A stretch of DNA of 64,000 nt from Methanothermococcus sp. Ax23 (GCF_049075655.1 NZ_CP157522.1:512001-576000), one strand, 5' to 3'; shown: positions 2,047 to 45,665, numbered from the stretch's first letter. Notes: generated from the letters alone by a model not told the origin. A program made the numbers and translations.

Positions 2047-2253
2047 TATAAACCGCCAAGAAGGTTCCAACAGCTTTTAGCTGTTGGACGAAAGGCGGTC
2101 ATTATATGAAAATAAAATATAACCAGTCCAAGTATCTATGGGTAGCGTTTGTAAATACTCTACTGTCTCAGAGTTTGGAAGTACATAAGGTAACCTTAAC
2201 CTCCTAATGAAGATAGGAGTAGTAGGCTTGGTAATTTAATAGGGTTAAAACCC
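2047..2253 (+). mobile_element. degenerate, truncated IS200/IS605-type mini-element (copy A)
   Basis: TTAC|tataaaccgcc left end, hairpin ccaacagc-tttta-gctgttgg, shared core accagtccaagtatctatgggtag; right end missing, abuts tRNA 3' end. Confidence 0.7.
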
Positions 2254-2254
2254 A

Positions 2255-2330
2255 TAGCGGGGCGAAGATTTGAACTTCGGATCTCCGGGTTATGAGCCCG
2301 GCGGGATGGGCCTGGCTACCCTACCCCGCT
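2255..2330 (-). tRNA. initiator tRNA-Met (CAT)
   Basis: AGCGGGGTAGGGTAGCCAGG...GGGCT CAT AACCC...GTTCAAATC; A1-U72 and three G-C pairs in the anticodon stem. Confidence 0.95.
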
Positions 2331-2417
2331 TCTTTTAACTTACTCGCAAAATAAAGAAGTAATATGTAATATATAAAGTTTATTGTTATGTGGTATAATT
2401 AAGCACAACCGTATCTA

Positions 2418-2603
2418 TTATTTAAAAAACATCATACCAACATAAATCGCCAATATTATCAGCATCATAAGAAAAAACATCTGCTGACTTCTAACCATTT
2501 TTTTTCTCTTTTTTAAATATTCTTCTTTGCATTTCTCAGAGCAGAACACTTCCTCAGGCGGAATAGATATTCCACAATTTAAACAATGTTTATGTTTTTC
2601 CAT
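2418..2603 (-). CDS. DUF2116-like Zn-ribbon membrane protein
   Basis: HKHCLNCG...FCSEKC followed by a C-terminal TM helix. Confidence 0.8.
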   Translation of the reverse strand: MEKHKHCLNCGISIPPEEVFCSEKCKEEYLKKRKKMVRSQQMFFLMMLIILAIYVGMMFFK

Positions 2604-2625
2604 AAAATGTCACCAAAATTACTTA

Positions 2626-3309
2626 TTACTCATCTGGAACTATTACAGTTCCATGATGCTCACCAGTTATGGCATTTAATATTTCACCCGGAGCTCCTTC
2701 AATTACCACAGTTTTTAATTTTGCCCTATCTATAATCTTAGATGCAAGTGGGTCGATTATGGACGAAGAGCCTGCGGCTATTGATGCAGAACCTGTAATA
2801 TTTAGGAGCTCTTTTGTTGTTATTTTTGTTAGTTTTTTTGCATCTTCATATTTTCTCGGGTCTTTATCATAGACTCCATCAACATTTGTAGCTATAACCA
2901 ATAAATCTGCGTTAATATACTCTGCCAGTGAAGCCGCTACTGCATCTGTTGTATGTGCAGGATGAGTCCCACCCATTACAACGATTTTATTTAGATTTAA
3001 AATCAATTCTGCTTCTTTAAAGTTTTCTGGAACCTTTTTTATAACATAATTTCCAAGAGCAGACATCAAAAGCATGCTGTTCATTCTTGTGGCTAGTATT
3101 CCTATTTCATCACAAAAAGCCTCATTTGTAAATTCTCTGGCAACAGAAATGTAGTTTCTCGCAGTATTTCCGCCGCCTACTACTATGCTCAATTCATTGC
3201 CCATGTCTTTTATTTTTTTAAATACCTCAGCATATTCTTTTAACTTATCTACCGACGCTCCTTCTTTTGGCATTACAACCGAACCGCCCAATGCAAAAAC
3301 TATCCTCAT
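2626..3309 (-). CDS. pyrH: UMP kinase
   Basis: LGGSV, VVGGG, GGTHPAHTTDAVAA, TNVDGVYDKDP motifs. Confidence 0.95.
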   Translation of the reverse strand: MRIVFALGGSVVMPKEGASVDKLKEYAEVFKKIKDMGNELSIVVGGGNTARNYISVAREFTNEAFCDEIGILATRMNSMLLMSALGNYVIKKVPENFKEAELILNLNKIVVMGGTHPAHTTDAVAASLAEYINADLLVIATNVDGVYDKDPRKYEDAKKLTKITTKELLNITGSASIAAGSSSIIDPLASKIIDRAKLKTVVIEGAPGEILNAITGEHHGTVIVPDE

Positions 3310-3480
3310 ATTAAGACCTCTATATTAATTTGTAAATAAATATAAAAGTTAAAATTAATTTCTAAAAATTTTATAAACTAATATTATATAAATTATACAC
3401 TCATAACATAAAAATAAGTATCAAATTCTGGAAAAATAATAAAAATAGAAATAAAAATTAATTAGATAGATGCAAAGTAA

Positions 3481-3684
3481 TTACATTTTTAATGCCATTT
3501 TTACATCTTCAGCTTTTACTGTTTTTCTACCAGCATGTTTTGCTAATTCTGCGGATTCTTTTGCAATATCCATTGCAATGTCTTCTAATGCTTCAACTAA
3601 TACCTTAGCTGCTTCTTCACTTACTCTTTCAGCACCTGCTTTTTTTAATATTCTTACTACTGGTGCAACTGGAAGTTCTGCCAT
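3481..3684 (-). CDS. archaeal histone
   Basis: [20 protein letters not shown]...[11 protein letters not shown] histone fold. Confidence 0.95.
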
Positions 3685-3728
3685 CATATCACCTCAGGGT
3701 TTTGTATTTTTAAATTTAGAAAAAGATA

Positions 3729-3744
3729 TATATAAATCTTTCGG
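3729..3744 (-). promoter_or_regulatory. BRE/TATA promoter of histone gene
   Basis: CCGAAAGATTTATATA on the minus strand. Confidence 0.7.
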
Positions 3745-3859
3745 AAATAATCCATATTTAATCCTACATTCATCATATATGAACTACCCATTATTTGATT
3801 ACATATATTCAAGCACTGAGTCAATTAATTAATCAATAACATAATAATAACACGTCCCC

Positions 3860-4234
3860 CTGACCTACTCCAACGAGTGAACTCGTTGGGTTCTCGCTTA
3901 CGGTAGTAAGCGAGCAACGAAATCATGAAGTGATTTCGTCTAATTTTAGTAGGGTTTAACCCTACACGGGTGGCCAAGCCCACTACCCCTATCCCCGTTT
4001 AGGAGATTCAGGGCTACCTTTTGAATTTCCAACCACTACCAGCGGTAGAGTTTTCACTAACCCTACCCATAGATACTTGGACTGGTAGCGTTACTTACTA
4101 CTAATCTTCACATATTTATATTTTACTACTTACTAGCCGATATAATGTCCGCCTCTCATCCAATCTCATAAGAGATTTTACAAAACTATGTTTTGTATAA
4201 CGATTAAAATCGTTGGCTTTCCCGGCGGTTTATC
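3860..4234 (-). mobile_element. non-autonomous IS200/IS605-type mini-element (copy B, 375 bp)
   Basis: Near-identical to 12127-12498 and 45341-45665; TTAC left flank, subterminal hairpins, GGTCAG right end, no transposase or TnpB ORF. Confidence 0.85.
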
Positions 4235-4305
4235 GTAAAGTCATGGATATATTTTTATAAATTCATGTCGGTATAATAAATAGAGCATAATATTGTGGTG
4301 ATACT

Positions 4306-4869
4306 ATTAACATTAACAAAAAATTCAATAAAAAGGAGATAATTGAGTGGGCAGTTTTTTTAATTGTGCTCTTAATAGTTTGGACCCATGTAAATGTTGT
4401 TGTGTCCAACAGCATGTATCCTGTGATGGAGAGGGGAGATTTTGTAATCGTAGAAAATGCAAATTGGGAATTCAACCCAAACGATGTTCAGGTTGGAGAT
4501 ATTGTTGTATATAAAGCGCACTGGCCAAACTATAGGGAAAATAATATGGAATATATGACCAAAATAGACAATAAAACATTAATTGCATTTAACGGAAATA
4601 AGGTTAAACCAGTAATACATAGAGTTATTGAAAAAATAGAACTTAATGGTAATATTTATATTATAACAAAAGGGGACAATAACCCCACTTATGACCCGGA
4701 GCTCATATCCATAAACCAGATAAAACAGAGAGTTGTGTCGATAAATGGAAAACCGCTGGTAATTCCGCATATTGGATATATCTCAATATTACTAAAAGAA
4801 TACATATGGTTGGTAATATTGATAATTATAGTATGGTATGCCTACGATTATTTAAAAAAGAAAAAATAA
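4306..4869 (+). CDS. signal peptidase I (Sec11/S26); probable ATT start
   Basis: VVSNSMYP catalytic Ser, VIHRV, TKGDNN; frame is open upstream to GGTGAT-ACT-ATT. Confidence 0.9.
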   Translation: MNINKKFNKKEIIEWAVFLIVLLIVWTHVNVVVSNSMYPVMERGDFVIVENANWEFNPNDVQVGDIVVYKAHWPNYRENNMEYMTKIDNKTLIAFNGNKVKPVIHRVIEKIELNGNIYIITKGDNNPTYDPELISINQIKQRVVSINGKPLVIPHIGYISILLKEYIWLVILIIIVWYAYDYLKKKK

Positions 4870-4919
4870 GTAGAGAAAACAACATTAGGAATAATAAAAA
4901 GAAAATAAAAAGAAAAAAT

Positions 4920-6098
4920 TTAAATAATCTCTTTAAAGTATTTTAACAATGAAGGTGCTTTTCTTACTGCCTTAAATGCTATCTTTTTTACATCTACTTC
5001 TTCTAACTTTTCATCCATTGCATCAGCAAGTGCATTTAATTCCTTTTCAGTTAATTTTTGAAGAACATTTTTATATTTGAGCTCCGCCATTAAGATATCA
5101 TAATATTTTTCCTTCCATTTATTTTCGTATTCAATTAATGCGTCTTTGGAATAATTATTATTTTTAATACTTTTTGCCGCCACTTCACCAGCCATGGAAC
5201 CACAACTCATGGATAAATAGATTCCTCCACCAGACAATGGACTTATCTGTCCTGCGGCATCTCCAACAACCATAATATTATCATCCACAGTTTTTTCTAT
5301 TGGTCCTCCAACAGGAGCTCCCCCACATTTAAATTCGATTGGAGTAGCATCTTTTAATCTTCCTTCCAATATAGGATGCTCTATAAATTCATTCAAATAA
5401 TCTATTGCCTTTTTATTCTTGTCGATAACACCTAAACCAACATTTGCAGTATCTCCCTTAGGGAATATCCAAGCATACCCTTTTGGACATATCTCTCCAA
5501 AATAGAATTCCATCATTTCATTATCTAGCAATTTAACATTTGTCATTTCATATTCTGCACAGGAACATACCTGAGTTGGAATCTTTTTGGACTTTAAACC
5601 TGCCATTTCAGCAACAGAACTTTCAACCCCATCTGCTGCTATAACAATTTTTGCTTTTACAGTATATTCCTCTCCAAGATGATTGACCATTACGTCATAT
5701 CCATCGCCGTTATGTTCCAAGCCCACAACTCTACTTTTAACTGCCACCTTTGTTCCCGCTCTTGCACTCCTTATGGCGAGATATTTGTCAAATATCTTTC
5801 TTTCCACAATATATCCGTCCGTTTTTCCTCCTTTAACCTCTATTTTTTTACCATTTGGAGCTATTAAATATCCTCCTTTTATGTAGTTTCTCACAAACTG
5901 CGGGTCCGGCGATATTCCAAAATCTTCCAACCTCGGAACTGCCTCTGCACACCTTACGGGCTCACCAATTTCCTGAGATTTTTCAATTAAAAGTGTTTTT
6001 GCTCCATTTTTAGATGCATAATATGAAGCCATACTTCCTCCGGGTCCTGCACCAACCACAACCACATCATACTCAGCATTATTTATTAACTCTCTCAT
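4920..6098 (-). CDS. digeranylgeranylglycerophospholipid / geranylgeranyl reductase
   Basis: GAGPGG FAD motif, [24 protein letters not shown]. Confidence 0.9.
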
Positions 6099-6099
6099 A

Positions 6100-6264
6100 T
6101 TATTCCTCCAATGCATTTAATGGACATACTATCATGCACGATTTGCAGCTATTACATTTTTCAGCATCTATAACAATTGTATTTTCTATCAACTCTATTG
6201 CGAGCTTATTGCACACTCCTACACAGGCTCCACAATATCCACATTTTTCATGATTCACTTTCAT
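6100..6264 (-). CDS. 2[4Fe-4S] ferredoxin
   Basis: [11 protein letters not shown] and [12 protein letters not shown]. Confidence 0.9.
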
Positions 6265-6404
6265 AACTATCACTTTGATAATTAAATACACATATAAAAA
6301 TAGCTATTATTTCTTGTATTAAATTATATTTATAGATATTTAACATAATTTTTTATTATGTTATGATATTATATATTATTTAAAAAAGATATATCCTATT
6401 TTTA

Positions 6405-7064
6405 TTAAAATTCTATATTCTGGTTATTTGCCAATCGCGGAACCATAGCCATTAACACTGCATTTTCACATAAATCCATTCGGTTAATACCGCCATTGGT
6501 TAAATATCCAATTATTCCTTCTTTCTTTCCTATATTTTTTACATTATATATTTTTTCAGCCACAACCCCACATTCCTCTCCATGTTTCATTTCTTTAACG
6601 AGCTCCGCTGGCACTTGAAATCCCTGCGAAGTTCCAATGGTATAATTCAATCCATCAAAAATGGCACAAACATGAACATCTAAATATTTTCCACCGATTT
6701 CAACAAGACCTGCCTCTATACCAATTCCATACAGTGAAGGTTTAGCCTCAAATGCATATTTTGCCCTATTTATGGCTCCTTTGGCTGTCTCATCAAATCC
6801 TATTGGCTGTTTTGATACTCCACTATCGGCATCAACCCCCACCACAAGAACACTTCCTATTGTTTTTTCCATTGCCAACTCAACAGCCTTAACTTTAACA
6901 GGATTTTCACTTCCAACAGAAACCACTCTTAATTTATGCCCTGCTGGACCTCCTCTTAATAATTTTGCCTTCTCAACACATTCTTCACTACCACACACAA
7001 AACTTCCAAAAAGGTAGGTTATTGCAGGAGCTCCGCATATATCACATTTTTTATTTTCAAACAT
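6405..7064 (-). CDS. inosine/xanthosine triphosphatase (YjjX family) with N-terminal Cys-rich module
   Basis: VGSENPVKVKAV, SGVSKQP, GAINRA, GIEAGL. Confidence 0.85.
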   Translation of the reverse strand: MFENKKCDICGAPAITYLFGSFVCGSEECVEKAKLLRGGPAGHKLRVVSVGSENPVKVKAVELAMEKTIGSVLVVGVDADSGVSKQPIGFDETAKGAINRAKYAFEAKPSLYGIGIEAGLVEIGGKYLDVHVCAIFDGLNYTIGTSQGFQVPAELVKEMKHGEECGVVAEKIYNVKNIGKKEGIIGYLTNGGINRMDLCENAVLMAMVPRLANNQNIEF

Positions 7065-7119
7065 CTTTACCACTTATTTAATTTATTATTATCATTAAGT
7101 TATTATTTATTTTATTAAT

Positions 7120-7827
7120 TTATTTGTTATCCACTACTACTTCCACACCATATCTTATTACATTGTTTTTTCTTAAATATGTCCTATATTCTGCAATTTT
7201 ATAGGGCATCTCCATTATATTTTTTGAATAATTAGAATCCATTGTAAGAGTATTTAAAAAACTTCTTAAATCATTTGGCGATTTTATATCGTATATATTC
7301 TCTGCACCGCTTGAAATTACAACGGGAGTATCGTATTTTTTTGCGAGAAATAGGTTTCTTCTAAATGCCCATAAAATTCTTGCCCTCTCGTAATATTTCT
7401 TTTCCAATAAACTCTTAAAATTCAGTTCAATTGCTACCCTGTGGGAGCTCCCCAATCTTGCAAGCACATGGTCAATACCATTGTCTCTTCTGTTTAGTTC
7501 TGGCGTGGATAAAATATCCACATCGTGCATTTCTAATGCCTTTCTACTAATTTTTATAACTCCACCTTCCACAAGTATAATATCCACTTTATTCCTATAC
7601 TTTTTAACAACCTTTGATAACTCCTTTGAAGATTTTGATGGTATTTTTATTCCAGAATATATTCTTAAACCGTGTTTTTCACCATACTCCTTAACACATT
7701 CTAATTTTTCATTGTCATATCCATCATGATGCTGAACAGCAACTGAACCATACCATCCCAACTCTTTAAGTAGTTTAATGCCTTCTTCATCAAATATGTG
7801 ATTGATATCTACGGGTTTAGTTATCAT
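7120..7827 (-). CDS. rnp3: RNase P protein component 3 (Rpp30)
   Basis: GIDHVLAR, VAIELNF, PVVISSGA..SPNDL. Confidence 0.85.
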   Translation of the reverse strand: MITKPVDINHIFDEEGIKLLKELGWYGSVAVQHHDGYDNEKLECVKEYGEKHGLRIYSGIKIPSKSSKELSKVVKKYRNKVDIILVEGGVIKISRKALEMHDVDILSTPELNRRDNGIDHVLARLGSSHRVAIELNFKSLLEKKYYERARILWAFRRNLFLAKKYDTPVVISSGAENIYDIKSPNDLRSFLNTLTMDSNYSKNIMEMPYKIAEYRTYLRKNNVIRYGVEVVVDNK

Positions 7828-8005
7828 AATATCCTCTTCAAAACTGATGGAAAAATAAAATATAAAATAAATGAAAATAAAAAAGGAAGGATAATTTAAT
7901 ATATATTATATGTTTAAAAGCCATTAAAGCCATTTAAAATAAATATTCATGATTTATATAGTCTCCGAAATTCTAGATGTCGTATGCCCACCTATAAATC
8001 TGATA

Positions 8006-8305
8006 TTAATACTTCATCCTATCTTGGGGAGTTCTCACTTCCTCAATTATTCTTTTTCCTGCGGCAACTTCATCTATACTATGTATTACACCGTTCATTG
8101 ATTCTATTATTTCTTTTATTGGCTCATACTGTAAATCCATCCCTTCAATGGTAATTTTAATATTTTCTGTGGATTTATCTATTTCATAAACGGTAATATT
8201 TACACCATCTACTTCATTTAATGCACACAATTTTACCGCTAAATCCGTTAATTTGGGCTCATGTGTTTTTAAAACGTCCAACACTATTCTTCTTAGTCCC
8301 GGCAA
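8006..8305 (-). CDS. DUF211 family protein
   Basis: RRIVLDVLK.HEP, IHSIDEVAAG. Confidence 0.85.
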   Translation of the reverse strand: MPGLRRIVLDVLKTHEPKLTDLAVKLCALNEVDGVNITVYEIDKSTENIKITIEGMDLQYEPIKEIIESMNGVIHSIDEVAAGKRIIEEVRTPQDRMKY

Positions 8306-8454
8306 TTTCTACTCCTCCAATTCAGTTATATATTATTTATTAATAAAGTATTTAATTTGATATATATAGTTAATGCAAACTATAAATTAATTTTTAAACA
8401 TCGATTGGTAAGTAATAATTATACCTTAAAAAGGGAATGGAGAATTATTTGTTA

Positions 8455-9408
8455 TTAATCTCCTTTTAACATTCCAATTTTAGCAAGTAATGCACTGAGC
8501 TGTATTCTTTCATTTGCCCCTTCCACTATTCTAAAATCACATTCTCCAATTGCTTCAACGAGAGATACCTTTTTTCTTTCTTCAATATCTAAATTAGGAA
8601 TCTCCCTAAACATCTGTAATAGTATGTCTTCTCCACTCATTCCCCAATCAATCATTAAGTTATATAGGAGCTCTCTTGCTTCAATGAATTTGTTGTTTAG
8701 TGCGAGCTCTACCATTTTTATAATCTCATCTGGTCGTGCCTTTGATGATACTTTATAAACTACTTCATCATCGATATTTTTTGAAACTGTTGCAGCGGTT
8801 TGCAATACGTTTATAGCCTTTCTTAAATCCCCTTCTGATACATAGATTATTGCATCAATACCGCTATCATCAATGGTAATATTTTCATTTTCTGCAATTT
8901 CTTTAAGTTTTTTTATAATATCTTCCCGTTTCAGTGGTGAAAACCTAAATATAGCACATCTTGATTGTATCGGAGGAATAATACGGCTTGGAAAGTTGCA
9001 ACTAAGGATAAATCGGCATATATCGGAGTATTTCTCCATAGTTCGCCTTAATGCGTTTTGAGCATCGCTTGTAAGGGCATCGCTTTCATCCAAAAATATT
9101 ATCTTAAATGGTGCATCCCCAATTGGCTTTGTTCGTGCAAAATCCTTTACCTTTGTTCTTATTACATCAATACCTCTTTCATCCGAACTGTTTAATTCTA
9201 AAATATTGTCTCTCCAATTTTCACCAAATAAATCCCTTGCAAGACATAATGCCGCAGTCGTCTTTCCAACGCCGGGCGGACCGCTAAATAGCATATGCGG
9301 CATGGATTTCTTTTTTACATAGTTTTTAAGCCTTTTTATAATTTCATCATGCCCTGTAATTTCATCCAATGTTTTTGGACGGTATTTTTCTACCCATGGT
9401 TTTTCCAT
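8455..9408 (-). CDS. rfcS: replication factor C small subunit (intein-free)
   Basis: PWVEKYRP, GPPGVGKT, ELNSSDERG, LDESD, SRC. Confidence 0.97.
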   Translation of the reverse strand: MEKPWVEKYRPKTLDEITGHDEIIKRLKNYVKKKSMPHMLFSGPPGVGKTTAALCLARDLFGENWRDNILELNSSDERGIDVIRTKVKDFARTKPIGDAPFKIIFLDESDALTSDAQNALRRTMEKYSDICRFILSCNFPSRIIPPIQSRCAIFRFSPLKREDIIKKLKEIAENENITIDDSGIDAIIYVSEGDLRKAINVLQTAATVSKNIDDEVVYKVSSKARPDEIIKMVELALNNKFIEARELLYNLMIDWGMSGEDILLQMFREIPNLDIEERKKVSLVEAIGECDFRIVEGANERIQLSALLAKIGMLKGD

Positions 9409-9452
9409 ATTTTCACCAAATGGTTATTATAGATTATAATATTATTTTACCA

Positions 9453-10553: not shown

Positions 10554-10622
10554 TTTATCATCCTTTTAATCTTTCTTAGAAATAACTAAAATAAAAATAA
10601 AATAAATAATGATTAAATCACA

Positions 10623-11670: not shown

Positions 11671-12637
11671 TTATTTTTTATCTTTTATTTCCCTTATTAA
11701 ATCAATTACACATTTAACTTTTTTATTTTTTATAATTATACTATCGGATGTTGTCACTACCTCTTTATTCATTAATATGTAATCGCAATTTTTCACACAA
11801 AAAACTTTACCATCGATATTATATTTTTCCATCAAATTTCTTATTTTTTTGGAGAACTCCCCACTTTTTGACACTTGGGCATCAAAATAAAATATTGGTT
11901 TTATATCATACTTTTTAAATAATCCCATCAACAAATTTAGAGCTCTTTCAGTATCTGAGTTAATTTTGTAATTTCCGTAAATTCCCATAAAATCCCTGTA
12001 AATTCCATCATCGCATAAAACTACATTATTTTTTAAAAGTGCTTCAATTCCAATTAATACATTATATCCATCAATATTTAGCTCCTTATTCGATAATTTT
12101 TCAATATCTATTAATTTATTTTTTACGATAAACCGCCGGGAAAGCCAACGACTTCAGTCGTTATACAAAACATAGTTTTGTAAAATCTCTTACGAGATTG
12201 GATGAGAGGCGGACATTATATCGGCTAGTAAGTAGTAAAATATAAATATATGAAGATTAGTAGTAAGTAACGCTACCAGTCCAAGTATCTATGGGTAGGG
12301 TTAGTGAAAACTCTACCGCTGGTAGTGGTTGGAAGTGCATAGCGTAGCCCTGAACCCATTAATGGGTAGGGGTAGTGGGCTTGGCCACCCGTGTAGGGTT
12401 AAACCCTACTAAAATTAGACGAAATCACTTCGTGATTTCGTTGCTCGCTTACTACCGTAAGCGAGAACCCAACGAGTTCACTCGTTGGAGTAGGTCAGAG
12501 ACAACATTCAAAGCATAATCCTTTTTATATCCTCTGTTTATCAAATATCTAAAATCCTTTTTAGCATCCTTTATTTTTACGCTAATTTCTTTATTTAGTT
12601 TAGCACCTATTTTTTCGTTTATTTCTTTATGGGACAT
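11671..12637 (-). pseudogene. DUF434-family gene interrupted by mini-element copy C
   Basis: 5' part DFRYLINRGYKK..ALNVVSD (12499-12637); 3' part VKNKL...IDGYNVLI...CDDGIYRDF (11671-12126). Confidence 0.85.
12127..12498 (+). mobile_element. non-autonomous IS200/IS605-type mini-element (copy C, 372 bp)
   Basis: TTAC|GATAAACCGCC ... CCAACGAG-TTCA-CTCGTTGG-AGTAGGTCAG; interrupts a CDS. Confidence 0.9.
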
Positions 12638-13236: not shown

Positions 13237-13334
13237 ATTTTCGCTCTTTATGTTTTAACATGCATATTTGCCAATTACATTTAAAACTATTTTAGATATA
13301 TTTAAATATACAAATACATATTTATAAAATAAAA

Positions 13335-13409
13335 CGCCCTGGCCGGGATTTGAACCCGAGTCACAGGAGTGACAGTCCTGTATGATAGGCCGAGCTACAC
13401 CACCAGGGC
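13335..13409 (-). tRNA. tRNA-Asp (GTC)
   Basis: GCCCTGGTGGTGTAG...CAGGACT GTC ACTCCTG...GTTCAAATC. Confidence 0.95.
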
Positions 13410-13422
13410 AAATGTATAAAAA

Positions 13423-13542
13423 AAGGCTGACGGCGTCACCCTGTTCCCACCGAAAGGCAGTACTTAGGGTATCGCTGGAGGGCTTAATTTCCGAGATCGG
13501 AACGGGATCGGATGTGGCACCTCCGCTATGACCGTCATGCCA
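13423..13542 (-). rRNA. rrf: 5S rRNA
   Basis: ACGGTCATAGCGGAGG...CCGATCCCGTTCCGATCTCGGAAATTAAGCC...AGTACT. Confidence 0.95.
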
Positions 13543-13558
13543 AAAATGTTAATCGTAG

Positions 13559-13632
13559 CGGGCCCGAAGGGATTCGAACCCTCGACCGCCTGGTTAAAAG
13601 CCAGGCGCTCTACCAGACTAAGCTACGGGCCC
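13559..13632 (-). tRNA. tRNA-Lys (TTT)
   Basis: GGGCCCGTAGCTTAG...CCTGGCT TTT AACCAGG...GTTCGAATC. Confidence 0.95.
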
Positions 13633-13666
13633 AACAATTTCTATATAATCAATATAATTAATAAAA

Positions 13667-13741
13667 CGCCCTGGCCGGGATTTGAACCCGAGTCACAGGA
13701 GTGACAGTCCTGTATGATAGGCCGAGCTACACCACCAGGGC
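13667..13741 (-). tRNA. tRNA-Asp (GTC), second copy
   Basis: Identical to 13335-13409. Confidence 0.95.
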
Positions 13742-13754
13742 AAATGTATAAAAA

Positions 13755-13874
13755 AAGGCTGACGGCGTCACCCTGTTCCCACCGAAAGGCAGTACTTAGG
13801 GTATCGCTGGAGGGCTTAATTTCCGAGATCGGAACGGGATCGGATGTGGCACCTCCGCTATGACCGTCATGCCA
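13755..13874 (-). rRNA. rrf: 5S rRNA, second copy
   Basis: Identical to 13423-13542. Confidence 0.95.
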
Positions 13875-13890
13875 AAAATGTTAATCGTAG

Positions 13891-13964
13891 CGGGCCCGAA
13901 GGGATTCGAACCCTCGACCGCCTGGTTAAAAGCCAGGCGCTCTACCAGACTAAGCTACGGGCCC
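13891..13964 (-). tRNA. tRNA-Lys (TTT), second copy
   Basis: Identical to 13559-13632. Confidence 0.95.
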
Positions 13965-37069: not shown

Positions 37070-37129
37070 TTTTTCACCTTTATAACTCTAAACTAAACTA
37101 AATATAAAATCTAAATGATAATATACATT

Positions 37130-38662: not shown

Positions 38663-38700
38663 GATTTCACTCCTTTTTTATTTTTATTCGTTATCTTATA

Positions 38701-38840
38701 GAGCTCACAAGTGAGCGTAGAATATAAAATTGCTTCGCAATTTTAATTTCGGAGCGAAGCGGAGAGTTATAAAAATCACTTCGTGATTTTTATTTAATCG
38801 AAATCAGAGATTTCGATGCTAAAACTCCAAGAGTTTTCCG
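38701..38840. repeat. array of five short palindromic hairpins
   Basis: gctcac-aa-gtgagc; taaaattgc-ttc-gcaatttta; ataaaaatcac-ttc-gtgatttttat; atcgaaatc-aga-gatttcgat; aaaactc-caa-gagtttt. Confidence 0.9.
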
Positions 38841-38913
38841 AATATCCAATACCAAATATCCAATTTTTAACCATTAATAAAAAATAATTTAATTTTAATT
38901 TAATTAATTTTAT

Positions 38914-39999
38914 TTATTTTTCAACCCTTGCTATTACCGGCATTCCTGCATCAGGCATCCATACTTTATCCAATTCAGGACATATTTTTCTTATGGCTGC
39001 CTCTTCACTAGATACAAATGTTAAATCGTCTTTTTCAGCAGCAATAAGTGGTCTAAGTTTTATCCTATCTGTTAAGCCCACCATGGCATTTTCCTTTTCA
39101 ACATCTCCATTCATGAACATCATTCCTTCATGGGTACCCACGATTATTCCAAATGGACCGTTTAATGTTGCACCGCCGTATGTCATCCTAATTGCTTCAT
39201 GGATTTTTCTTTCCTCTTCTGGCATGTTGTCTATTTCTTTCCAGAATCTTGGAGCTACGGCACTCAATGCATACTCAACAGGTAGTTTGTGTTTTCTTAT
39301 CAATAAATCAAATATATATGCTACAACCTCTGTATCTGTTAGCATTCTGCATTTGTATCCAAAACTTTCAACATATCTTTTATTTGTTCCATAGCTTGTA
39401 ATTTCTCCATTATGAACAACTGACCAATTCAATAGGTTAAATGGGTGAGCTCCTCCCCACCATCCTCTTGTGTTTGTTGGGTATCTCGCATGCGATAACC
39501 ACATATATCCTTTATATTCATCTAATTTGTAAAATTCTGCTACTTCCATTGGCCATCCTGATGCCTTAAATACCCCTAAGTTCTTACCGCTTGAAAATAC
39601 AAATGCCCCGTCTATTTTATCGTTAATTTCCATAACAATTTTTACCATTGTGTCTTCTTCAACATCCTTGTATTTTTCATCAAAATCATAGAAGAATCTC
39701 CATGGTATATGTTCTTTTTCTAAGATTCCTTCTTTTGTTGGAATCTCCTCGTCTTTAAGCACGTATCCATATTTTTCCAGTGTGTTTTTTACTTTTTCTC
39801 TTATTCTGTCGTAATCTGGTGCGTTATCCAAAAAAACATGTATAGCATAGCTGTCTTTGAACTTTGGATATATTCCATATCCTACATAGCCTGAACCTTG
39901 TCCATTTCCTCTTTCTTTTAGGCTGTCCAGTGCTATGGCTATCTTATCTCCACTTATTAATCTTTTTTTTCTGCTCATAAAACCGATAATTCCGCACAT
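38914..39999 (-). CDS. glutamate synthase Ntn amidotransferase subunit
   Basis: MCGIIG start after GGAGG, HARYPTN, HNGEI, TDTE, DR..LRP. Confidence 0.93.
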
Positions 40000-40162
40000 G
40001 GTAATCCTCCATTTGTGAGTTATACTAATATAAAAAAAGTCATTTATATAGCTTATCAAATAATCATATTAAAAAATTTTAAAAATTTGAATAGATATAT
40101 GATGTTATCATTTTTATATATTTTACCGTTATCAGTATATATTACTAACACATAATGAACAA

Positions 40163-40780
40163 TTACTCTCCCAATTCAACAGTTCCTACTCTGAATAAAG
40201 CTTTTATTGGAATACCCTCTATTTCTTTTATTCCACTTTTATCTATTATTACAACAGCTTTTTTTGGATTCCCTATATTTTTTAAATATTTTATAGTTTC
40301 TTTCATAGTATTTCCCGATGTCATTACATCATCCACAATTACAACATCTTTACCTTCAATACTTGGATAATTATGTCCTATAAATCCTGTGCTATTATCT
40401 TTACTGTGAAGATGCTTTTTAGGAATATATATTGAGAAATTTTTATCCATTTCTTCAGATATCAACGTTGCCAATGGAACCCCTCCTGTGGAAATGCCCA
40501 CAATTGCATCAAATTCCACATCTTTCAACATATCGCACATTATTAACGCTATATTTTTTAATCTTTTTGATGAAATCTTAATATTGTCCCATTCTACGAA
40601 TATATCTATGTTTTTACCTTTTTCTTCAATCTGCTTTTCCGGTTCTTTTAAAAGTTTTTCACCATTTAACACCAAATAAAGTGCAGTATCTACGGATATA
40701 TTCAATTCTTCTGCAATATCTGCGGTTGTAAATCCTACATCCCTCAATTTAAGTGCCTTTATTATGAGGTCTTTTTTCAT
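40163..40780 (-). CDS. HTH plus PRTase (PyrE-like/GfcR-type) protein
   Basis: [17 protein letters not shown]; [11 protein letters not shown]. Confidence 0.85.
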
Positions 40781-40932
40781 AACATCACCAATAATTCTTT
40801 TAATCCTATATACATTATATGTTATTATTTATTTAATTTTGTATTATTTCATCATATTCAATATATTCAATATTAAATTATTATTTTTAATTCATTTACC
40901 GAAAGTTTTATATATTGACTACTATCTATATA

Positions 40933-40966
40933 TTCAAAACATTCAAAAAATTTTGAACAAAATGAA
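40933..40966. promoter_or_regulatory. symmetric operator downstream of TATA box
   Basis: TTCA-N5-TTCA-N8-TGAA-N5-TGAA after ACCGAAAGTTTTATATA. Confidence 0.65.
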
Positions 40967-40999
40967 CAATATATATTACCATATAGATGCGGTGAGCTC

Positions 41000-41464
41000 A
41001 TGGATGAAGTAAAAAAAACGATAATAGAGTTATTTTCTGAAATTGCAAAAATTCACGGGCTAAGTAAATCAGTTGGAGAGGTTTATGCAGTGGTATTCCT
41101 ATCAGATAAACCGCTCTGCATAGCTGATATAATGGAAGAACTGGGAATGAGTAAGGGAAATGTAAGTATGAATCTGAACAAGCTTGAAAAAATTGGGTTT
41201 ATCAAAAAGGTGTGGATTAAAGGGGAAAGAAAAAACTATTACGAATCAGTAGATGGATTTTCTTCCTTCAAAGATATAGCAAAGAAGAAATATGACGTCA
41301 TATCAAAAGCCTGCGATAAATTGGAAGAATTAAAAGAAAAATCTGATGAGAATGAAAGAGAGCTCATATCTAAAAAACTCAAACACATCAAAAAAATGAG
41401 GGATGTACCAAAGAAAATATTGGAAGTGCTTGAAAATATTGATAGCGACGATAACAATGATTAA
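41000..41464 (+). CDS. GbsR/MarR-type transcriptional regulator
   Basis: [30 protein letters not shown]. Confidence 0.88.
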
Positions 41465-41488
41465 TTATAAGATTTTTGGTGGTAATGC

Positions 41489-42637
41489 ATGATTGAAAAG
41501 ATTTTAGGAAGAATTGCCCGCTTTTCAGAAAAGAAGCCGTTTTTAATGGTGGCAATTATTATAACACTTACAATATTTGCGGGACTGGAGGCAACAAATG
41601 TAAAATCCCAAACAGCCTTTGAAAAAATGCTTCCTCAGGACGACCCCATCATAAAAACGCTGTATGAGGTAAGGGACAATTTTGGAGGGACTGATATAAT
41701 TACAATTTGTATAAAATTGAAACCCTCCGATAGTCCAGATAAAGTGAATGACATACGAGACCCTCGAGTTCTGAGTTATGTAAAATTTTTAGAAGAGGAT
41801 TTAAATGGAATTGATGGAATTACAAAGATAAATTCGCCTGCGGATGTAATATTTCAAAAAAATGATGGAAAGGTTCCTAATGATATAGATACTGTAAAAG
41901 AAATATGTGAATCACTTACCGATGAAGAAAAAAGCAGGATTTTCAATTCCGAATATTCCATGGTAATTATTAATGCATATACAGATACAGGAGGAGACCA
42001 GAAAAAGCTTCTTAGATTAATGGATGATGTAAATGAAAGAATTAAGGATTCGCCAACACCTCCTGGGGTAGAAGTAGTATGCACAGGAACCCCCCCTATG
42101 AGAGACTTATTGAACACCCTCATGAAGGAAAGTCAGGTATTTACAACAACGGTTGGTGGAATTGGAATATTGTTTATATTATATCTGTATTTCAGAAAAC
42201 CTTTATCCACAGTTATGCCTCTAATTCCCGTATTGGTTGCAGTTGTATGGACTGGTGGAGCTATGGGAGTACTTGGAATTCCTGTGGATATGGCAACAGC
42301 AGGTATGGGTTCTTTACTTCTTGGTATGGGGATAGACTATGGAATTCACCTAATGCACCGGTATGAGGAAGAGAGGAAAAAGAAAATACCCAGTGATAAA
42401 GCAGTAGAAACCGCAGTTGTGAGCACAGGAACAGCAGTAATCGTCACAACAGCTACAACAGTAGTTGGTTTTCTTGCACTTGTGTTTGCCCCACTTCCTA
42501 TGATGGCTAACTTAGGTAAAGTATGTGCATTGGGTATCTTCTTCTGTATGGTTTCTGTGATTACATTACTTCCAGCAATGCTCATAATTGAAGAGAGATA
42601 TATTTTGCCATTAATTGGGAAGAATAGGGAAAAATAG
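41489..42637 (+). CDS. RND/MMPL-family exporter (half-size)
   Basis: FGGTD, TGTP, GMGIDYGIH..RY.EE. Confidence 0.88.
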   Translation: MIEKILGRIARFSEKKPFLMVAIIITLTIFAGLEATNVKSQTAFEKMLPQDDPIIKTLYEVRDNFGGTDIITICIKLKPSDSPDKVNDIRDPRVLSYVKFLEEDLNGIDGITKINSPADVIFQKNDGKVPNDIDTVKEICESLTDEEKSRIFNSEYSMVIINAYTDTGGDQKKLLRLMDDVNERIKDSPTPPGVEVVCTGTPPMRDLLNTLMKESQVFTTTVGGIGILFILYLYFRKPLSTVMPLIPVLVAVVWTGGAMGVLGIPVDMATAGMGSLLLGMGIDYGIHLMHRYEEERKKKIPSDKAVETAVVSTGTAVIVTTATTVVGFLALVFAPLPMMANLGKVCALGIFFCMVSVITLLPAMLIIEERYILPLIGKNREK

Positions 42638-42714
42638 TGAAAAAAGATAAATTAAAAGAGATATGGAGAAATAAAAAAATAAAAAATAGAAAAAATTAAA
42701 AATAAGGTGATATT

Positions 42715-44310
42715 ATGGATTTATTAAATAAAACTTCTTTAACGCTCAGATTAAAAAAGTATATGAGCGTAATTGCGTTTTCATCAATAATATTTTTATT
42801 GATATCAAGTGCCCATGCATTACAGGTTAATGAACCGCAGTATGAACCTTTAAAAATCCATCCCGGAGATGACGTGGATTTATGGTTTAAGATAACTAAT
42901 GATGATTACAATAAAGAAGTAAAAGATATAAAAATAACAATTACGCCACATTACCCATTTGAAATAAAGCAGGTAAATCCTACAAAAGGGGTTGCAACAT
43001 TATCTCACCTAAACTCTGGTGAAAGTGATACGACATATTTTAAACTCCATGTAAATGAGGATGCACCATCGAGGAATTATAGAATTGATGTAAAAGTATC
43101 GTATGATGAAGTTGAACATAAAAATGGAGAAGATATAATCACACACCATGAATGGACAAAAATATACTACCTTCCAATATATGGAACGGCAAATTTCGAG
43201 ATAAATACAAAAAATAATATCTCATTAACACCGGCAAAAACAAAAATTGTTCCTATCACTCTATACAACAAAGGAACGGGAACTGCAAAGCAGTGTACCC
43301 TTACAATAGGTGGAAATAATTACATATCGCCAATAGATACCACAAAATTCTATGTTGGGAGAGTTAAAGCAAATGACGGAAAAACTATAAATTTAAAATT
43401 ATATACAAACGAAAAAACACCAGAAGGCTCTTATTTAATTCCCGCCACAATATCATGGGTGAATGAAGACGGAGCTCAGAAGACTGAAAATATAAACATC
43501 GGTCTCTTAGTTCAAGGGGATGTTTTATTGGGAATATCCAATGTAATTACAACTCCAAAAGAGATTAAACCGGGAAATACCTATGTAAGAATAGATACCA
43601 CCATTACAAACAACGGACACGGTGAGGCAAAGGATATAAATGTCCATCTTAAAACTGAATATCCATTTAAAGATAGTTGGAGTAATGCAAACTATAAAGA
43701 TATTGGAACACTATCAGGCGGCGAAAGTAAGGATGTTTCCTTTACTATCGACATTGACAAAAACGCACCACCTAAGCATTATAAGATTCCAGTAGAAATA
43801 GAGTATTTGGATATTTTCAATAAAAAGCACAACATTACAAAAACAATCGACATATACATTAAACCAAAACCAATAATTGAGATTATTCCGGAAGAATATA
43901 CTGTAAAGGCAGGAACTGAAAATACTGTATTAATCCATGTCAAAAACACAGGAAATGAGAAAGCAGAAAATGTAAAGATAACTGCAATTAAAAACTCAGC
44001 TCAGCCCTTTGATTATCCAACAAAAAGCGATACCGTAGGGACTTTAAAACCTGGGGAAAATGGAACTGGGGCAATTGTTATCGATGTGGATAAAAATGCA
44101 GTTGCTAAGGATTACATTATTACAGTTGAAATAAGGGCAGTTGGGGATAGAGAGGAAGGGGATGACAATGTATATATCACCCAAAAATCCATAAAAGTTA
44201 AGGTTGAAAATAACTCCATAAGTTATTTACCTATTGAAATTGGATTGATAGTTATTCTTGTGGTTGTTGGATTATACTATTATAAGAGAAAAAATAAGAA
44301 TGAACAATAA
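42715..44310 (+). CDS. COG1361 S-layer-domain surface protein
   Basis: Signal peptide, repeated N.G...A..V Ig-like units, C-terminal TM with basic tail. Confidence 0.85.
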   Translation: MDLLNKTSLTLRLKKYMSVIAFSSIIFLLISSAHALQVNEPQYEPLKIHPGDDVDLWFKITNDDYNKEVKDIKITITPHYPFEIKQVNPTKGVATLSHLNSGESDTTYFKLHVNEDAPSRNYRIDVKVSYDEVEHKNGEDIITHHEWTKIYYLPIYGTANFEINTKNNISLTPAKTKIVPITLYNKGTGTAKQCTLTIGGNNYISPIDTTKFYVGRVKANDGKTINLKLYTNEKTPEGSYLIPATISWVNEDGAQKTENINIGLLVQGDVLLGISNVITTPKEIKPGNTYVRIDTTITNNGHGEAKDINVHLKTEYPFKDSWSNANYKDIGTLSGGESKDVSFTIDIDKNAPPKHYKIPVEIEYLDIFNKKHNITKTIDIYIKPKPIIEIIPEEYTVKAGTENTVLIHVKNTGNEKAENVKITAIKNSAQPFDYPTKSDTVGTLKPGENGTGAIVIDVDKNAVAKDYIITVEIRAVGDREEGDDNVYITQKSIKVKVENNSISYLPIEIGLIVILVVVGLYYYKRKNKNEQ

Positions 44311-44459
44311 AAAGAATAAATGGCAAAAGGTAAAAAATAAAACTATCTTTTATTTTTTTTATTTTATTTTTCATAAAAACATAACTTTTTTAAACTCCTT
44401 TTAATTATTTCTATTAAATTTATAATTATTTTATTATTTATAATGATAATGGTGAAAGG

Positions 44460-45344
44460 ATGAATCCCTACGATATAATGAAGGCATCACAAATATCCTG
44501 CTGTTTAGAAGTTAGCAGTTTTAAACCTGGAAATGTTCATAGAAACAGAGAATACGATGATATAAAATACCACCATTTCCTGAGCTCAGGCATAGCATTT
44601 GGAAATATAATATACGAAGCATCTCAGGATAACAAGGATATTGGAAAATACATAAAGTTGGCAGTAATCGAGTCAAAAAAATGGTCTCCAACTAATGCAA
44701 ACTTAGGTATAATTATGTTGCATATGCCTATTGGTATGAGCTCAGGGAAAATCGATGAATTTGATGAAAATGAATTGAAAAAGGAAATAATATCCACAGC
44801 AAAAAACACCACTGTAAATGATGCAGTAAATGTTTATGAAGCTATTGAAATAGCAATGCCGAATATAACTCCCCCAAAAGAAGGTCCCGACGCTCAAAAA
44901 AATGATGCAAAACAGGAATTAATAGAAAAAAATTTAACGCTATACGATGTTTTTAAAATATCTTCCACATGGGATAGCATTTCAAAGGAATGGGCAGAAG
45001 GATTTAATATATCCTTTAAAGGATACAAACTATTAAATGAATATTATGAGGAATACAACAACATAAATTTGGCAACAACAAAAACATTTTTAAGTATTTT
45101 ATCAGAGCATCCAGATACCTTAATAGCAAGAAAAAAGGATTTGGATACTTCAAAAATGGTTTCAGAAATGGCAAAAGATATACTGGATAACGGCTTTAAA
45201 AAAGAAGATATTGAAGAGTTTGATAAATTCCTATCAAAAGAAGGAAATAAATTAAATCCCGGAACAACTGCGGATTTAGTGGCATCTTCATTGATGATAT
45301 TTTTATTGGATAGGATAGATAAAAAAGATACTGTGTTATGCTGA
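44460..45344 (+). CDS. CitG-family triphosphoribosyl-dephospho-CoA synthase-like protein
   Basis: [33 protein letters not shown]; stop codon lies within the mini-element end. Confidence 0.88.
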
Positions 45345-45665
45345 CCTACTCCAACGACTAAAGTCGTTGGGTTCTTTTAGTAGGGTCTAACCCTACATGG
45401 GTGGCCAAGCCCACTACCCCTATCTCCGTTTAGGAGATTCAGGGCTACGCTATACACTTCTAACCACTACCAGCGGTAGAGTTTTCGATAACCCTACCCA
45501 TAATTACTTGGACTGGTAGCGTTACTTACTATTAATCTTCTCATATTTATAGTTTACTACTTACTATCTGATATAATGTCCGCCTCTCATCCAATCTCGT
45601 AAGAGATTTTACAAAACTATGTTTTGTATAACGATTAAAATCGTTGGCTTTCTCGGCGGTTTATC
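45341..45665 (-). mobile_element. non-autonomous IS200/IS605-type mini-element (copy D, 325 bp)
   Basis: Same ends and core as copies B and C but lacks the 50-bp insert near the right end. Confidence 0.88.

What the first reader, a model, noticed from the sequence alone, without database searches (positions are those of the whole stretch)
2047..45665. Dispersed protein-free IS200/IS605 mini-elements that look like stand-alone guide-RNA cassettes
Seen: four copies (2047-2253, 3860-4234, 12127-12498, 45341-45665) each follow TTAC; the three complete ones end in a hairpin plus GGTCAG. None encodes TnpA or TnpB. The three complete copies keep a TATA-like (A/C)TATAAATA about 25-30 nt before a ~140-nt GC-richer segment. 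Its stems covary between copies: atctcc-taaac-ggggat / atctcc-taaac-ggagat / acccat-ta-atgggt, and ccaacgaG-ttca-Ctcgttgg / ccaacgaC-ttta-Gtcgttgg. Established: IS608 inserts 3' of TTAC, and TnpB reRNA is the element right end plus flanking DNA as guide. Inference: each complete copy expresses a reRNA with a different guide (GGGGACGTGTTATT..., AGACAACATTCAAAG..., CATAACACAGTATC...), forming a distributed guide library for a trans-acting TnpB or a nuclease-dead derivative. Two of these guides are antisense to host genes.
Basis: partly seen in the sequence, partly recalled or inferred. Interest (0 to 1): 0.85.

Follow-up and report, generated by a model that had tools for sequence, protein, structure and literature searches.

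The report
Protein-free transposon minis carrying guide-RNA genes
The four repeats are real miniature, protein-free derivatives of a TnpB transposon that keep a promoter and the transposon's guide-RNA gene, a kind of element already described in other microbes, here most likely used to keep the minis in place, not to regulate host genes.

Summary
The window has three complete mini-elements and one decayed, truncated one. The genome has 27 complete minis (283-405 nt). All 27 follow TTAC and end in a hairpin plus GGTCAG. Nine 1.4-1.6-kb elements with the same ends carry tnpB. Two of these genes are intact and seven are split by an identical 47-nt double-hairpin insert. No Y1 TnpA gene is present. 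Each mini consists of the left end, the tnpB promoter and first codons, a 78-nt stem-loop that lies inside tnpB in the parent, and the last ~107 nt of tnpB plus the right end (the omegaRNA scaffold). Both RNA modules covary strongly, including a helix to the cleavage-site bases. Minis of the same build occur in four genomes of two other genera. Vent RNA-library contigs cover the omegaRNA half far more deeply than neighbouring genes, which is only a hint of expression. An orthologous empty site reads TTAC + guide. The guides have no TTAC-flanked second targets, and the TnpB catalytic motifs appear intact. Best reading: PATE/MITE-type omegaRNA cassettes served in trans by TnpB for selfish retention. 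This concept is already in print (Meers 2023; Gomes-Filho 2015). The host-directed "guide library" reading is not supported. The internal stem-loop and the double-hairpin inserts appear to be new details.

The parts
12127..12498 (+). Mini-element copy C, complete (372 nt); splits a DUF434/DUF5616 gene
   Evidence: gene context.
12127..12221 (+). Left end of copy C. TTAC flank, then 18 nt ending AAAG, then hairpin CCAACGAC-TTCA-GTCGTT, plus an optional 37-nt two-hairpin segment
   Evidence: The spacing matches passages on IS608 in PMC3201880. The 37-nt segment is absent in 6 of 27 minis.
12237..12244 (+). TATA-like box AAAATATA. It lies about 23 nt upstream of the start of the structured RNA and is homologous to the tnpB promoter and start region
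   Evidence: conserved in 27 of 27 minis; 6 carry C at one position. TATA pattern TWTATATA from PMC2699501. Homology of mini M1418k to the tnpB start was read.
12259..12336 (+). 5' stem-loop domain ('mid-piece'): an outer stem plus an inner GGTAG/CTACC hairpin. It is homologous to a stretch inside the tnpB ORF
12344..12498 (+). omegaRNA core: P0/P1, the long-range helix UGGCC:GGUCA, P2, the right-end hairpin 12469-12488, and the TEM ...GGTCAG
12415..12464 (+). 50-nt double-hairpin insert in the omegaRNA linker (absent from copy D)
12499..12514 (+). Predicted guide of copy C (AGACAACATTCAAAGC); antisense to the DUF434 ORF fragment
3860..4234 (-). Mini-element copy B, complete (375 nt), intergenic beside an archaeal histone gene. 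Core 3860-4017, insert 3894-3943, mid-piece 4025-4102, guide 3844-3859
   Evidence: A DNA-run joint 3893>3944 skips 50 nt.
45341..45665 (-). Mini-element copy D, complete (325 nt), without the 50-nt insert. Core 45341-45448, mid-piece 45456-45533, guide 45325-45340. It sits at the last codon of a CitG gene
2047..2253 (+). Copy A: a diverged, 3'-truncated mini. It keeps the left end, the mid-piece and part of the core. It has no right-end hairpin or TCAG and abuts tRNA-Met
   Evidence: The mid-piece model R1 hits window 2106-2183 at E 1.9e-10.

Best explanation
The repeats are PATE/MITE-type non-autonomous members of an IS608-like IS200/IS605 family. Two internal deletions of a tnpB element left five parts:
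1. the left end;
2. the tnpB promoter and first codons;
3. a 78-nt stem-loop that normally lies in the middle of tnpB;
4. the last ~107 nt of tnpB plus the right end, which form the omegaRNA scaffold;
5. in 18 of 27 copies, an extra 50-nt double hairpin.

Shown here: the anatomy, the shared ends, insertion 3' of TTAC without duplication, the existence of sister elements with TnpB, RNA-type covariation, and conservation of the same design in other genera.

Inferred: each mini is transcribed from its TATA box into a ~190-240-nt RNA that runs ~16 nt or more into the flank. That RNA is loaded in trans by TnpB from the two intact sister elements. The complex cuts only the empty allele (TTAC followed by the flank), so recombination puts the mini back. 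This is selfish retention or homing, as shown for bacterial IS605 elements.

The genome has no Y1 TnpA, so the family cannot currently excise or transpose unless TnpA is supplied from outside. The system may be idling, or acting only on incoming empty alleles.
For: Copies and ends:
- 27 complete minis and 9 tnpB elements share the left and right ends.
- TTAC precedes 36 of 36.
- The empty orthologous site in 3 of 3 relatives reads TTAC|CATAA..., with no duplication.
- The end geometry matches IS608: TTAC, 18-20 nt, AAAG before the left hairpin, and TCAG ending 10 nt after the right hairpin (PMC3201880 passages).

TnpB:
- The intact ORFs of 420 and 408 aa match OrfB_IS605 and Cas12f1-like_TNB and solved TnpB/Cas12f structures.

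RNA structure of the core:
- 98.0% of cells are paired, against 82.6% in shuffles.
- 16 of 30 pairs change on both sides.
- The covariation score is 0.459 against 0.189 (0 of 500 shuffles reach it); slid controls give at most 0.118.
- The long-range pair to the TEM is CG:10, GC:10, AU:9.
- Two G-U pairs are conserved in 30 and 31 of 32 distinct rows.

RNA structure of the 5' stem-loop and the whole RNA:
- The 5' stem-loop has 89.1% of cells paired against 76.1%, and covariation 0.377 against 0.162 (0 of 500).
- Folding z-scores are -5.2 and -9.0.

Promoter:
- The TATA box is conserved in 27 of 27 minis and in all 7 mini loci read in four other genomes.
- In the other-genus mini where I counted the spacing, TTTATATA + 23 nt reaches the first base of the stem.

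RNA libraries:
- In two vent RNA libraries the bins holding the omegaRNA half have contig depth 97-175 (X1) and 877-1501 (X2).
- Bins that hold no mini copy are at most 8.
- Two DNA runs show only about 5-10-fold excess from copy number.
- One RNA contig end matches a mini-specific variant.

Precedent: PATEs 'often encode omegaRNAs' that need TnpB in trans (PMC10055086 passages).
Against: - No transcript ends, strand or TnpB binding could be shown. The RNA evidence is contig depth from metatranscriptomes, which the tool warns cannot rank expression and may include DNA.
- There is no Y1 TnpA in a 98.9%-complete genome. Only a 23-aa remnant is found. So empty sites, the only predicted targets, are not being produced by excision now.
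- Only 2 of 9 cognate tnpB genes are intact.
- In 18 of 27 minis a 50-nt insert sits in the scaffold, and its effect on TnpB binding is unknown.
- No Rfam family matched.
- The copies are kin, so the shuffle statistics overstate independence.
Confidence: 0.6

Rival explanations
1. Inert relics. The minis are dead deletion derivatives. Their conservation reflects recent copying, gene conversion and the needs of single-strand DNA transposition. Any RNA made from them has no role.
For: - No TnpA in the genome.
- Copies are mosaics that exchange segments.
- Copy A is decayed.
- One mini is split by a ~1-kb insert.
- The whole 372-nt mini was found in 0 of 40 relatives searched, so this subfamily is young.
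Against: - The same left end / TATA / stem-loop / core / right end design is kept in minis of four other genomes in two other genera, with compensatory changes in every helix.
- The conserved helices P0, P1, P2 and the helix to the TEM lie outside what IS608 TnpA needs, namely hairpin, guide and cleavage site (PMC3201880 passages).
- Conserved G-U pairs fit sense-strand RNA, not DNA.
Confidence: 0.2
2. TnpB-independent small RNAs. The structured transcripts act on their own, for example as stable sRNAs or as cis-antisense RNAs against the neighbouring gene.
For: - In H. salinarum a PATE-derived RNA and a sotRNA with the right-end UUCA tetraloop improved growth when overexpressed (PMC4615843 abstract and passage).
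- Transcripts of copies C and D would run antisense into a DUF434 ORF fragment and a CitG gene.
- The right-end hairpin loops here are TTCA or TTTA.
Against: - Insertion sites are heterogeneous and share no theme beyond TTAC.
- The scaffold is the same as that at the 3' end of tnpB and covaries with it.
- Nothing links the RNAs to a host pathway.
Confidence: 0.1
3. The minis form a distributed guide library through which a trans-acting or nuclease-dead TnpB targets host genes.
For: There are many different guides (27), and two window guides overlap host ORFs in antisense. Nuclease-dead TnpB repressors exist elsewhere (PMC10705468 passages).
Against: - Guides show no TTAC-flanked second-site matches beyond controls: TTAC plus at most 2 mismatches gives 2 versus 1, and at most 3 mismatches gives 24 versus 17.
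- At the occupied site the match is flanked by the right end, not the TAM.
- The cognate TnpBs appear to keep LSIDLG, IGELN and NADINGA. Assigning these as the catalytic motifs rests on recall.
- Guides are fixed by where the element inserted.
Confidence: 0.06

Closest known systems
PATE-like minimal IS200/IS605 elements carrying omegaRNAs (Geobacillus stearothermophilus; Meers et al. 2023, PMC10055086, passages read)
   Same: Protein-free elements with the left and right ends of tnpB elements. The authors state that they 'often encode omegaRNAs' that must be used in trans by TnpB from other IS copies. Many tnpA-less copies sit in one genome.
   Different: Those are bacterial, and a cognate TnpA is present and active there. 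Here the host is archaeal (Methanococcales-like) and no TnpA is in the genome. The minis keep the tnpB promoter and an extra 5' stem-loop taken from the interior of tnpB. Whether the Geobacillus PATEs have such parts could not be checked, because the figures and supplements were not available.
Halobacterium salinarum sotRNAs and the PATE-derived RNA VNG_R0052 (Gomes-Filho et al. 2015, PMC4615843, abstract and passages read)
   Same: Archaeal IS1341-type tnpB 3'-end RNAs and a transcribed RNA from a fused left end/right end PATE. Both have a right-end hairpin with a UUCA-type tetraloop.
   Different: The haloarchaeal PATE is described as fused ends. The elements here carry a full scaffold plus a promoter and a 5' domain. 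The HgcC family (RF00062) mentioned there does not match these elements.
IS608 of Helicobacter pylori (PMC3201880, passages read)
   Same: The target and left cleavage site are TTAC. The guide tetranucleotide before the left hairpin is AAAG. The right cleavage site lies 10 nt 3' of the right hairpin. Insertion makes no duplication.
   Different: The right cleavage site is TCAG (TCAT in the other genera) rather than TCAA. The elements here have tnpB only; tnpA is seen only in relatives' copies.
ISDra2 TnpB reRNA/omegaRNA (PMC8612924 and PMC10097598, search listings and abstract starts only; features as summarised in PMC12558985 passages)
   Same: The scaffold overlaps the tnpB 3' end and the right end. 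It has a right-end hairpin and a pairing that involves the TEM. The guide comes from the flanking DNA.
   Different: No sequence or Rfam similarity. The core here is only ~107 nt. The conserved stem-loop ~690 nt upstream inside tnpB has no counterpart that I could find in the texts read.
TldR, nuclease-dead TnpB-like repressors (PMC10705468, passages read)
   Same: TnpB relatives that use omegaRNA-like guides.
   Different: TldRs have lost RuvC residues and carry guides matched to host promoters. Here the acidic motifs appear present and the guides have no TAM-flanked host targets.

Membership tests
Non-autonomous IS200/IS605 mini-element (PATE/MITE) | Shares left-end and right-end sequences with protein-coding elements of the family | tested here: met
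   Mini positions 1-95 and the last ~115 nt match 9 tnpB elements.
Non-autonomous IS200/IS605 mini-element (PATE/MITE) | No transposase or nuclease gene inside | tested here: met
   Length is 283-405 nt. The longest ORF overlapping a window copy is 52 aa apart from host ORFs that read in.
Non-autonomous IS200/IS605 mini-element (PATE/MITE) | Inserted 3' of a fixed tetranucleotide (TAM) without target duplication | tested here: met
   TTAC precedes 27 of 27 minis. For copy D the empty site in G003, G012 and G010 equals left flank plus right flank exactly.
Non-autonomous IS200/IS605 mini-element (PATE/MITE) | Subterminal hairpins at both ends, with cleavage sites at IS608-like distances | tested here: met
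   Read. Distances were compared with PMC3201880 passages.
Non-autonomous IS200/IS605 mini-element (PATE/MITE) | A cognate Y1 TnpA available in the cell to mobilise it | tested here: not met
   PF01797 gives 0 matches in G000. tblastn with a relative's TnpA finds only a 23-aa remnant. Relatives G024 and G032 do encode it next to the homologous tnpB.
TnpB omegaRNA / reRNA | Scaffold encoded over the 3' end of tnpB and the right end | tested here: met
   The tnpB stop codon lies ~35 nt before the right-end tip, and the same segment is present in the minis.
TnpB omegaRNA / reRNA | Conserved secondary structure supported by covariation, including a pairing with the TEM | tested here: met
   16 of 30 pairs have double changes, and pair 47-121 is CG:10, GC:10, AU:9.
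TnpB omegaRNA / reRNA | Transcribed on the sense strand and continuing ~16 nt into flanking DNA as the guide | tested here: inconclusive
   RNA-library contigs are enriched over the scaffold, and some run more than 200 nt past a right end. Contigs show neither strand nor ends, and DNA carry-over is possible.
TnpB omegaRNA / reRNA | Bound by TnpB and directing TAM-dependent DNA cleavage | not testable with these tools
   This needs RIP-seq or in vitro cleavage assays.
TldR-type nuclease-dead guide-RNA regulators | Loss of RuvC catalytic residues, and guides matching host promoters | tested here: not met
   The LSIDLG, IGELN and NADINGA motifs are present in both intact ORFs (alignment to 8hr5). 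Calling them the catalytic motifs rests on recall. No TAM-flanked host matches beyond control.

The most novel reading that the evidence does not exclude
In this archaeal TnpB clade the functional guide RNA may have two domains. One is the 3' scaffold. The other is a 78-nt stem-loop encoded ~690 nt upstream, in the middle of the tnpB reading frame, where it constrains the protein sequence. The minis would then be an old, promoter-bearing 'single-chain' lineage in which the coding spacer was deleted. This lineage has co-evolved with tnpB across at least three genera and persists even in a genome without TnpA. That would make them stand-alone guide-RNA genes on the way from transposon RNA to a trans-encoded guide system. 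The stem-loop would be a required TnpB-binding or RNA-stabilising part.
Probability: 0.2. Interest if true: 0.7.

Novelty: new member of a known kind. Interest (0 to 1): 0.45.

Why it matters
The finding gives a clean natural example in archaea of guide-RNA genes separated from their nuclease gene. There are 27 promoter-driven omegaRNA cassettes for two intact TnpB genes, in a genome that has lost the transposase. This makes a current question directly testable: whether TnpB serves non-autonomous elements in trans, and what such a system does once transposition has stopped.

The covariation-backed structure gives a ready design for testing which RNA parts TnpB needs. It comprises a ~107-nt core, an optional 50-nt insert and a 5' stem-loop.

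The stem-loop inside the tnpB ORF is one lead worth a specialist's look. The tiny double-hairpin inserts that break 7 of 9 tnpB genes are another.

Tried and rejected
Rfam. No family reached threshold on the elements, nor at E up to 10 on copy C, nor at E up to 1 on a relative's mini. The idea that these are HgcC RNAs (RF00062) was therefore dropped.

50/47-nt insert as an archaeal bulge-helix-bulge intron. Rejected by reading: the two hairpins use almost the whole insert and its two ends cannot pair. Translational bypass or frameshift was considered. The junction codons match in one group (ATT...ATT) but not in the other (ATT...ATA). Nothing could be tested.

Low dN/dS among insert-bearing tnpB copies. 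I first read this as selection after the insertion. The copies proved to be mosaics, so it is not evidence of that.

Pairing between the conserved CCAAG of the 5' stem-loop and CUUGG of the core. Rows with CCACG keep CUUGG, so there is no covariation (read).

Trans targets of the guides. None beyond control. The first version of that script only produced an unreadable list.

Restoring a single ORF by in-silico excision of copy C. The DUF434 and DUF5616 parts fall in different frames, so the gene carries a further lesion or was already broken.

One regular expression found nothing useful and was replaced.

Sequencing runs. Only X1, X2, X9 and X10 were laid. Stretches of the window without RNA cover are not evidence of silence.

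Literature. Three searches found no paper on these minis or on the double-hairpin inserts in Methanococcales: Methanocaldococcus/MITE/IS605/TnpB/IS1341, TnpB/MITE/in trans/non-autonomous/archaea, and Methanocaldococcus/hairpin/repetitive element/intergenic/mobile. Supplements were closed. The Extended Data of PMC10055086 and the MITE lists of PMC11602168 could hold relevant cases.

Full report
WHAT IS THERE

- Copies B (3860-4234, minus), C (12127-12498, plus) and D (45341-45665, minus) are complete.
- Copy A (2047-2253) is a diverged, 3'-truncated relative that abuts tRNA-Met.
- The window is G000:C1:512001-576000 of a 1.67-Mb genome with 32% GC.

A BLAST search of the genome with copy C gives 104 segments. 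They resolve as follows:
- 27 complete minis of 283-405 nt;
- a few fragments;
- nine elements of about 1.39-1.57 kb that share mini positions 1-95 and the last ~115 nt.

All 27 minis and all 9 long elements are preceded by TTAC. All 27 minis end GGTCAG; four long elements end GGTCAG and five end TGTCAG.

THE PARENT

The long elements carry a single gene. Two copies have intact ORFs of 420 and 408 aa. These match OrfB_IS605 and the Cas12f1-like TNB domain and solved TnpB/Cas12f structures. The motifs LSIDLG, IGELN and NADINGA are present. I take these to be the RuvC acidic motifs from recall.

The other seven copies are split at nt 232 by an identical 47-nt double-hairpin insert. Removing it in silico gives 404-421-aa frames in all seven.

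The genome has 21 TnpB-domain loci but no Y1 transposase. PF01797 gives 0 matches at 98.9% completeness. A relative's TnpA finds only a 23-aa remnant. In relatives G024 and G032 the homologous tnpB is preceded by a 144-aa Y1 TnpA. So the family is of the ordinary IS605 type and has lost its transposase here.

ANATOMY OF A MINI

1. The left end begins after TTAC. It runs 18 nt ending AAAG and then forms a hairpin. An optional 37-nt two-hairpin segment is missing in 6 of 27 minis.
2. An AT-rich stretch holds AAAA(T/C)ATAAATAT. It is followed by remains of the tnpB start: mini M1418k has ATGTGAATTCCCATAGTAAGTAA where the parent has ATGGTGAATTCCATGCAAGTAAC.
3. A 78-nt stem-loop is homologous to a stretch inside the tnpB ORF, about 690 nt upstream of the scaffold.
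4. The last ~107 nt of tnpB plus the right end form the scaffold. The right-end hairpin is followed by 10 nt ending TCAG.

Distances at both ends match those given for IS608 (PMC3201880 passages).

An orthologous site in three relatives reads ...TTATG|GTAA.... On the element's strand this is TTAC followed directly by copy D's flank. This confirms the boundaries and the lack of target duplication.

RNA STRUCTURE

RNAalifold on the 36 copies from this genome predicts five features:
- P0;
- P1;
- a long-range helix UGGCC:GGUCA that reaches the cleavage-site bases;
- P2;
- the right-end hairpin.

I then added scaffolds from minis and tnpB elements of other genera, giving 34 sequences of which 32 are distinct. 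On this set:
- 98.0% of cells pair, against 82.6% in shuffles;
- 16 of 30 pairs change on both sides;
- the covariation score is 0.459 against 0.189 (0 of 500 shuffles reach it), and slid controls give at most 0.118.

The long-range pair 47-121 is CG:10, GC:10, AU:9. Two G-U pairs are kept in 30 and 31 of 32 rows. That fits sense-strand RNA rather than DNA.

The 5' stem-loop is also supported. There, 89.1% of cells pair against 76.1%, covariation is 0.377 against 0.162 (0 of 500), and 7 of 13 outer-stem pairs have double changes. In the tnpB genes this stem is 13 bp long, and its compensatory changes alter amino acids.

The copies are kin, so these statistics overstate independence. The slid controls and the three or more pair types at single positions argue that the signal is real.

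Single-sequence folds give z-scores of -5.2 (copy D) and -9.0 (copy C). In the copy C fold the 50-nt insert simply adds two hairpins to a junction.

CONSERVATION OF THE DESIGN

The complete 372-nt mini was found in none of the 40 relatives searched.

A covariance model of the stem-loop hits 12 of 40 genomes of the order, counting this one. I read seven mini-type loci in four other genomes (G024, G032, G029, G017). In all seven the stem-loop directly abuts the scaffold, within an element of a few hundred nt. Each has its own left and right hairpins and a right end ...GTCAT. TTAC precedes 6 of the 7.

Each of these also has a TWTATATA-type box. In G024, TTTATATA plus 23 nt reaches the first base of the stem. 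This is the spacing reported for M. jannaschii promoters (PMC2699501 passages).

So promoter, stem-loop and scaffold form a maintained unit and not an accident of one deletion.

EXPRESSION

Only contigs of public runs could be laid.

| Run | Bins with the omegaRNA halves of copies B and C | Bins with their left-end halves | Bins with no mini copy |
|---|---|---|---|
| X1 (vent RNA library) | 175 and 97.5 | 31 and 42 | at most 6.7 |
| X2 (vent RNA library) | 877 and 1501 | 122 and 247 | at most 8 |
| X9 (DNA, related strain) | 62 and 61 | 94 and 54 | about 5-12 |
| X10 (DNA, related strain) | 27 and 30 | 52 and 65 | about 3-8 |

- In X2 the bin that holds copy A reads 182. It is covered by one 553-nt contig that also spans unique upstream sequence.
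- One RNA-library contig end carries a variant found only in two minis.
- Other contigs run more than 200 nt beyond a right end.

The tool warns that contig depth cannot rank expression and that DNA may be present. I count this as a hint, not proof.

THE GUIDES

The 16-nt flanks of the 27 minis have no more TTAC-flanked near-matches elsewhere in the genome than control 16-mers taken 60 nt further on. With at most 2 mismatches the counts are 2 versus 1. With at most 3 mismatches they are 24 versus 17.

Gene context of the window copies:
- Copy D sits at the last codon of a CitG gene. It changes W to C and supplies a new stop.
- Copy C splits a DUF434/DUF5616 gene.
- Copy B is intergenic, beside a histone gene.

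MOST LIKELY MECHANISM

These are PATE/MITE-type omegaRNA cassettes. Their RNAs, if loaded in trans by the two intact TnpBs, would direct cleavage only of the empty allele (TTAC plus flank) and so favour re-copying of the mini. This is the model shown for bacterial IS605 elements. The same authors note that PATEs often encode omegaRNAs that need TnpB in trans (PMC10055086 passages). A transcribed archaeal PATE RNA was reported in 2015 (PMC4615843).

The block-wise mosaic pattern among tnpB copies and among mini variants shows frequent gene conversion. This is compatible with the model but does not prove it.

What is not ordinary:
- the absence of TnpA;
- the conserved 5' stem-loop drawn from the interior of tnpB;
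- the small double-hairpin modules that have entered tnpB, the scaffold, the stem-loop loop and the left end in different lineages.

VERDICT

This is a new member of a known kind. Interest is moderate.

Noticed in passing
window 12415-12464 and 3894-3943; genome loci L055, L057-L060, L062, L063 (tnpB nt 232): A 47-50-nt double-hairpin module (TTAGACGAAA-hairpin-TTTCGT, then CTCGCTT-hairpin-AAGCGA) behaves like a tiny insertion element.
- An identical 47-nt copy breaks 7 of 9 tnpB genes at the same codon.
- A 50-nt version sits in the omegaRNA linker of 18 of 27 minis and 3 of 9 long elements.
- At least 14 stand-alone copies lie elsewhere in the genome.
- BLAST finds it in 12 of 40 relatives.
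- Similar modules sit in other positions of relatives' elements.
- Its stems covary, and no Rfam family matches.
Whether it is removed or bypassed at the RNA level is open.
   Followed up: partly
loci L055-L063 (genome copies of the tnpB element): The nine tnpB copies are mosaics. Blocks with 0 differences per 100 nt alternate with blocks of 10-19 differences, which indicates frequent gene conversion between dispersed copies. Mini variants (P1 type, hairpin type, insert present or absent) assort in the same way.
   Followed up: partly
L074:1967-2398 (minus), L076:681-1112 (plus); G000:C1:947365-947430: Relatives in another genus carry a 144-aa Y1 TnpA overlapping the start of the homologous tnpB (Pfam E 7e-41). 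The window's genome keeps only a 23-aa C-terminal remnant beside a 426-aa TnpB gene.
   Followed up: yes
window 13328-13959: An exact 300-nt tandem duplication (spacing 332 nt) covers tRNA-Asp, 5S rRNA and most of tRNA-Lys. It lies within a cluster of seven tRNA genes.
   Followed up: no
window about 38773, 48146 and 55616: Another short hairpin repeat (AAAAATCACTTYGTGATTTTT) occurs here. It follows a GC-rich GGAGCGAAGCGGAGAG-like motif and is unrelated to the minis.
   Followed up: no
G000:C1:1542609-1544034: A mini is split by an insert of about 1.04 kb. Mini positions 99-109 are present on both sides, which is possibly an 11-bp target duplication made by another IS.
   Followed up: no
window 2047-2330: The truncated copy A ends 1 nt from the 3' end of tRNA-Met (minus strand). 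In RNA run X2 a 553-nt contig of depth ~199 spans copy A and unique upstream sequence, against at most 8 for bins that hold no mini copy.
   Followed up: no
27 mini right-end flanks, genome-wide: The first run of four or more T begins at a median of 19 nt after the right end. The median after random TTAC sites is 49 nt. This may reflect termination that sets guide length, or a target preference.
   Followed up: partly
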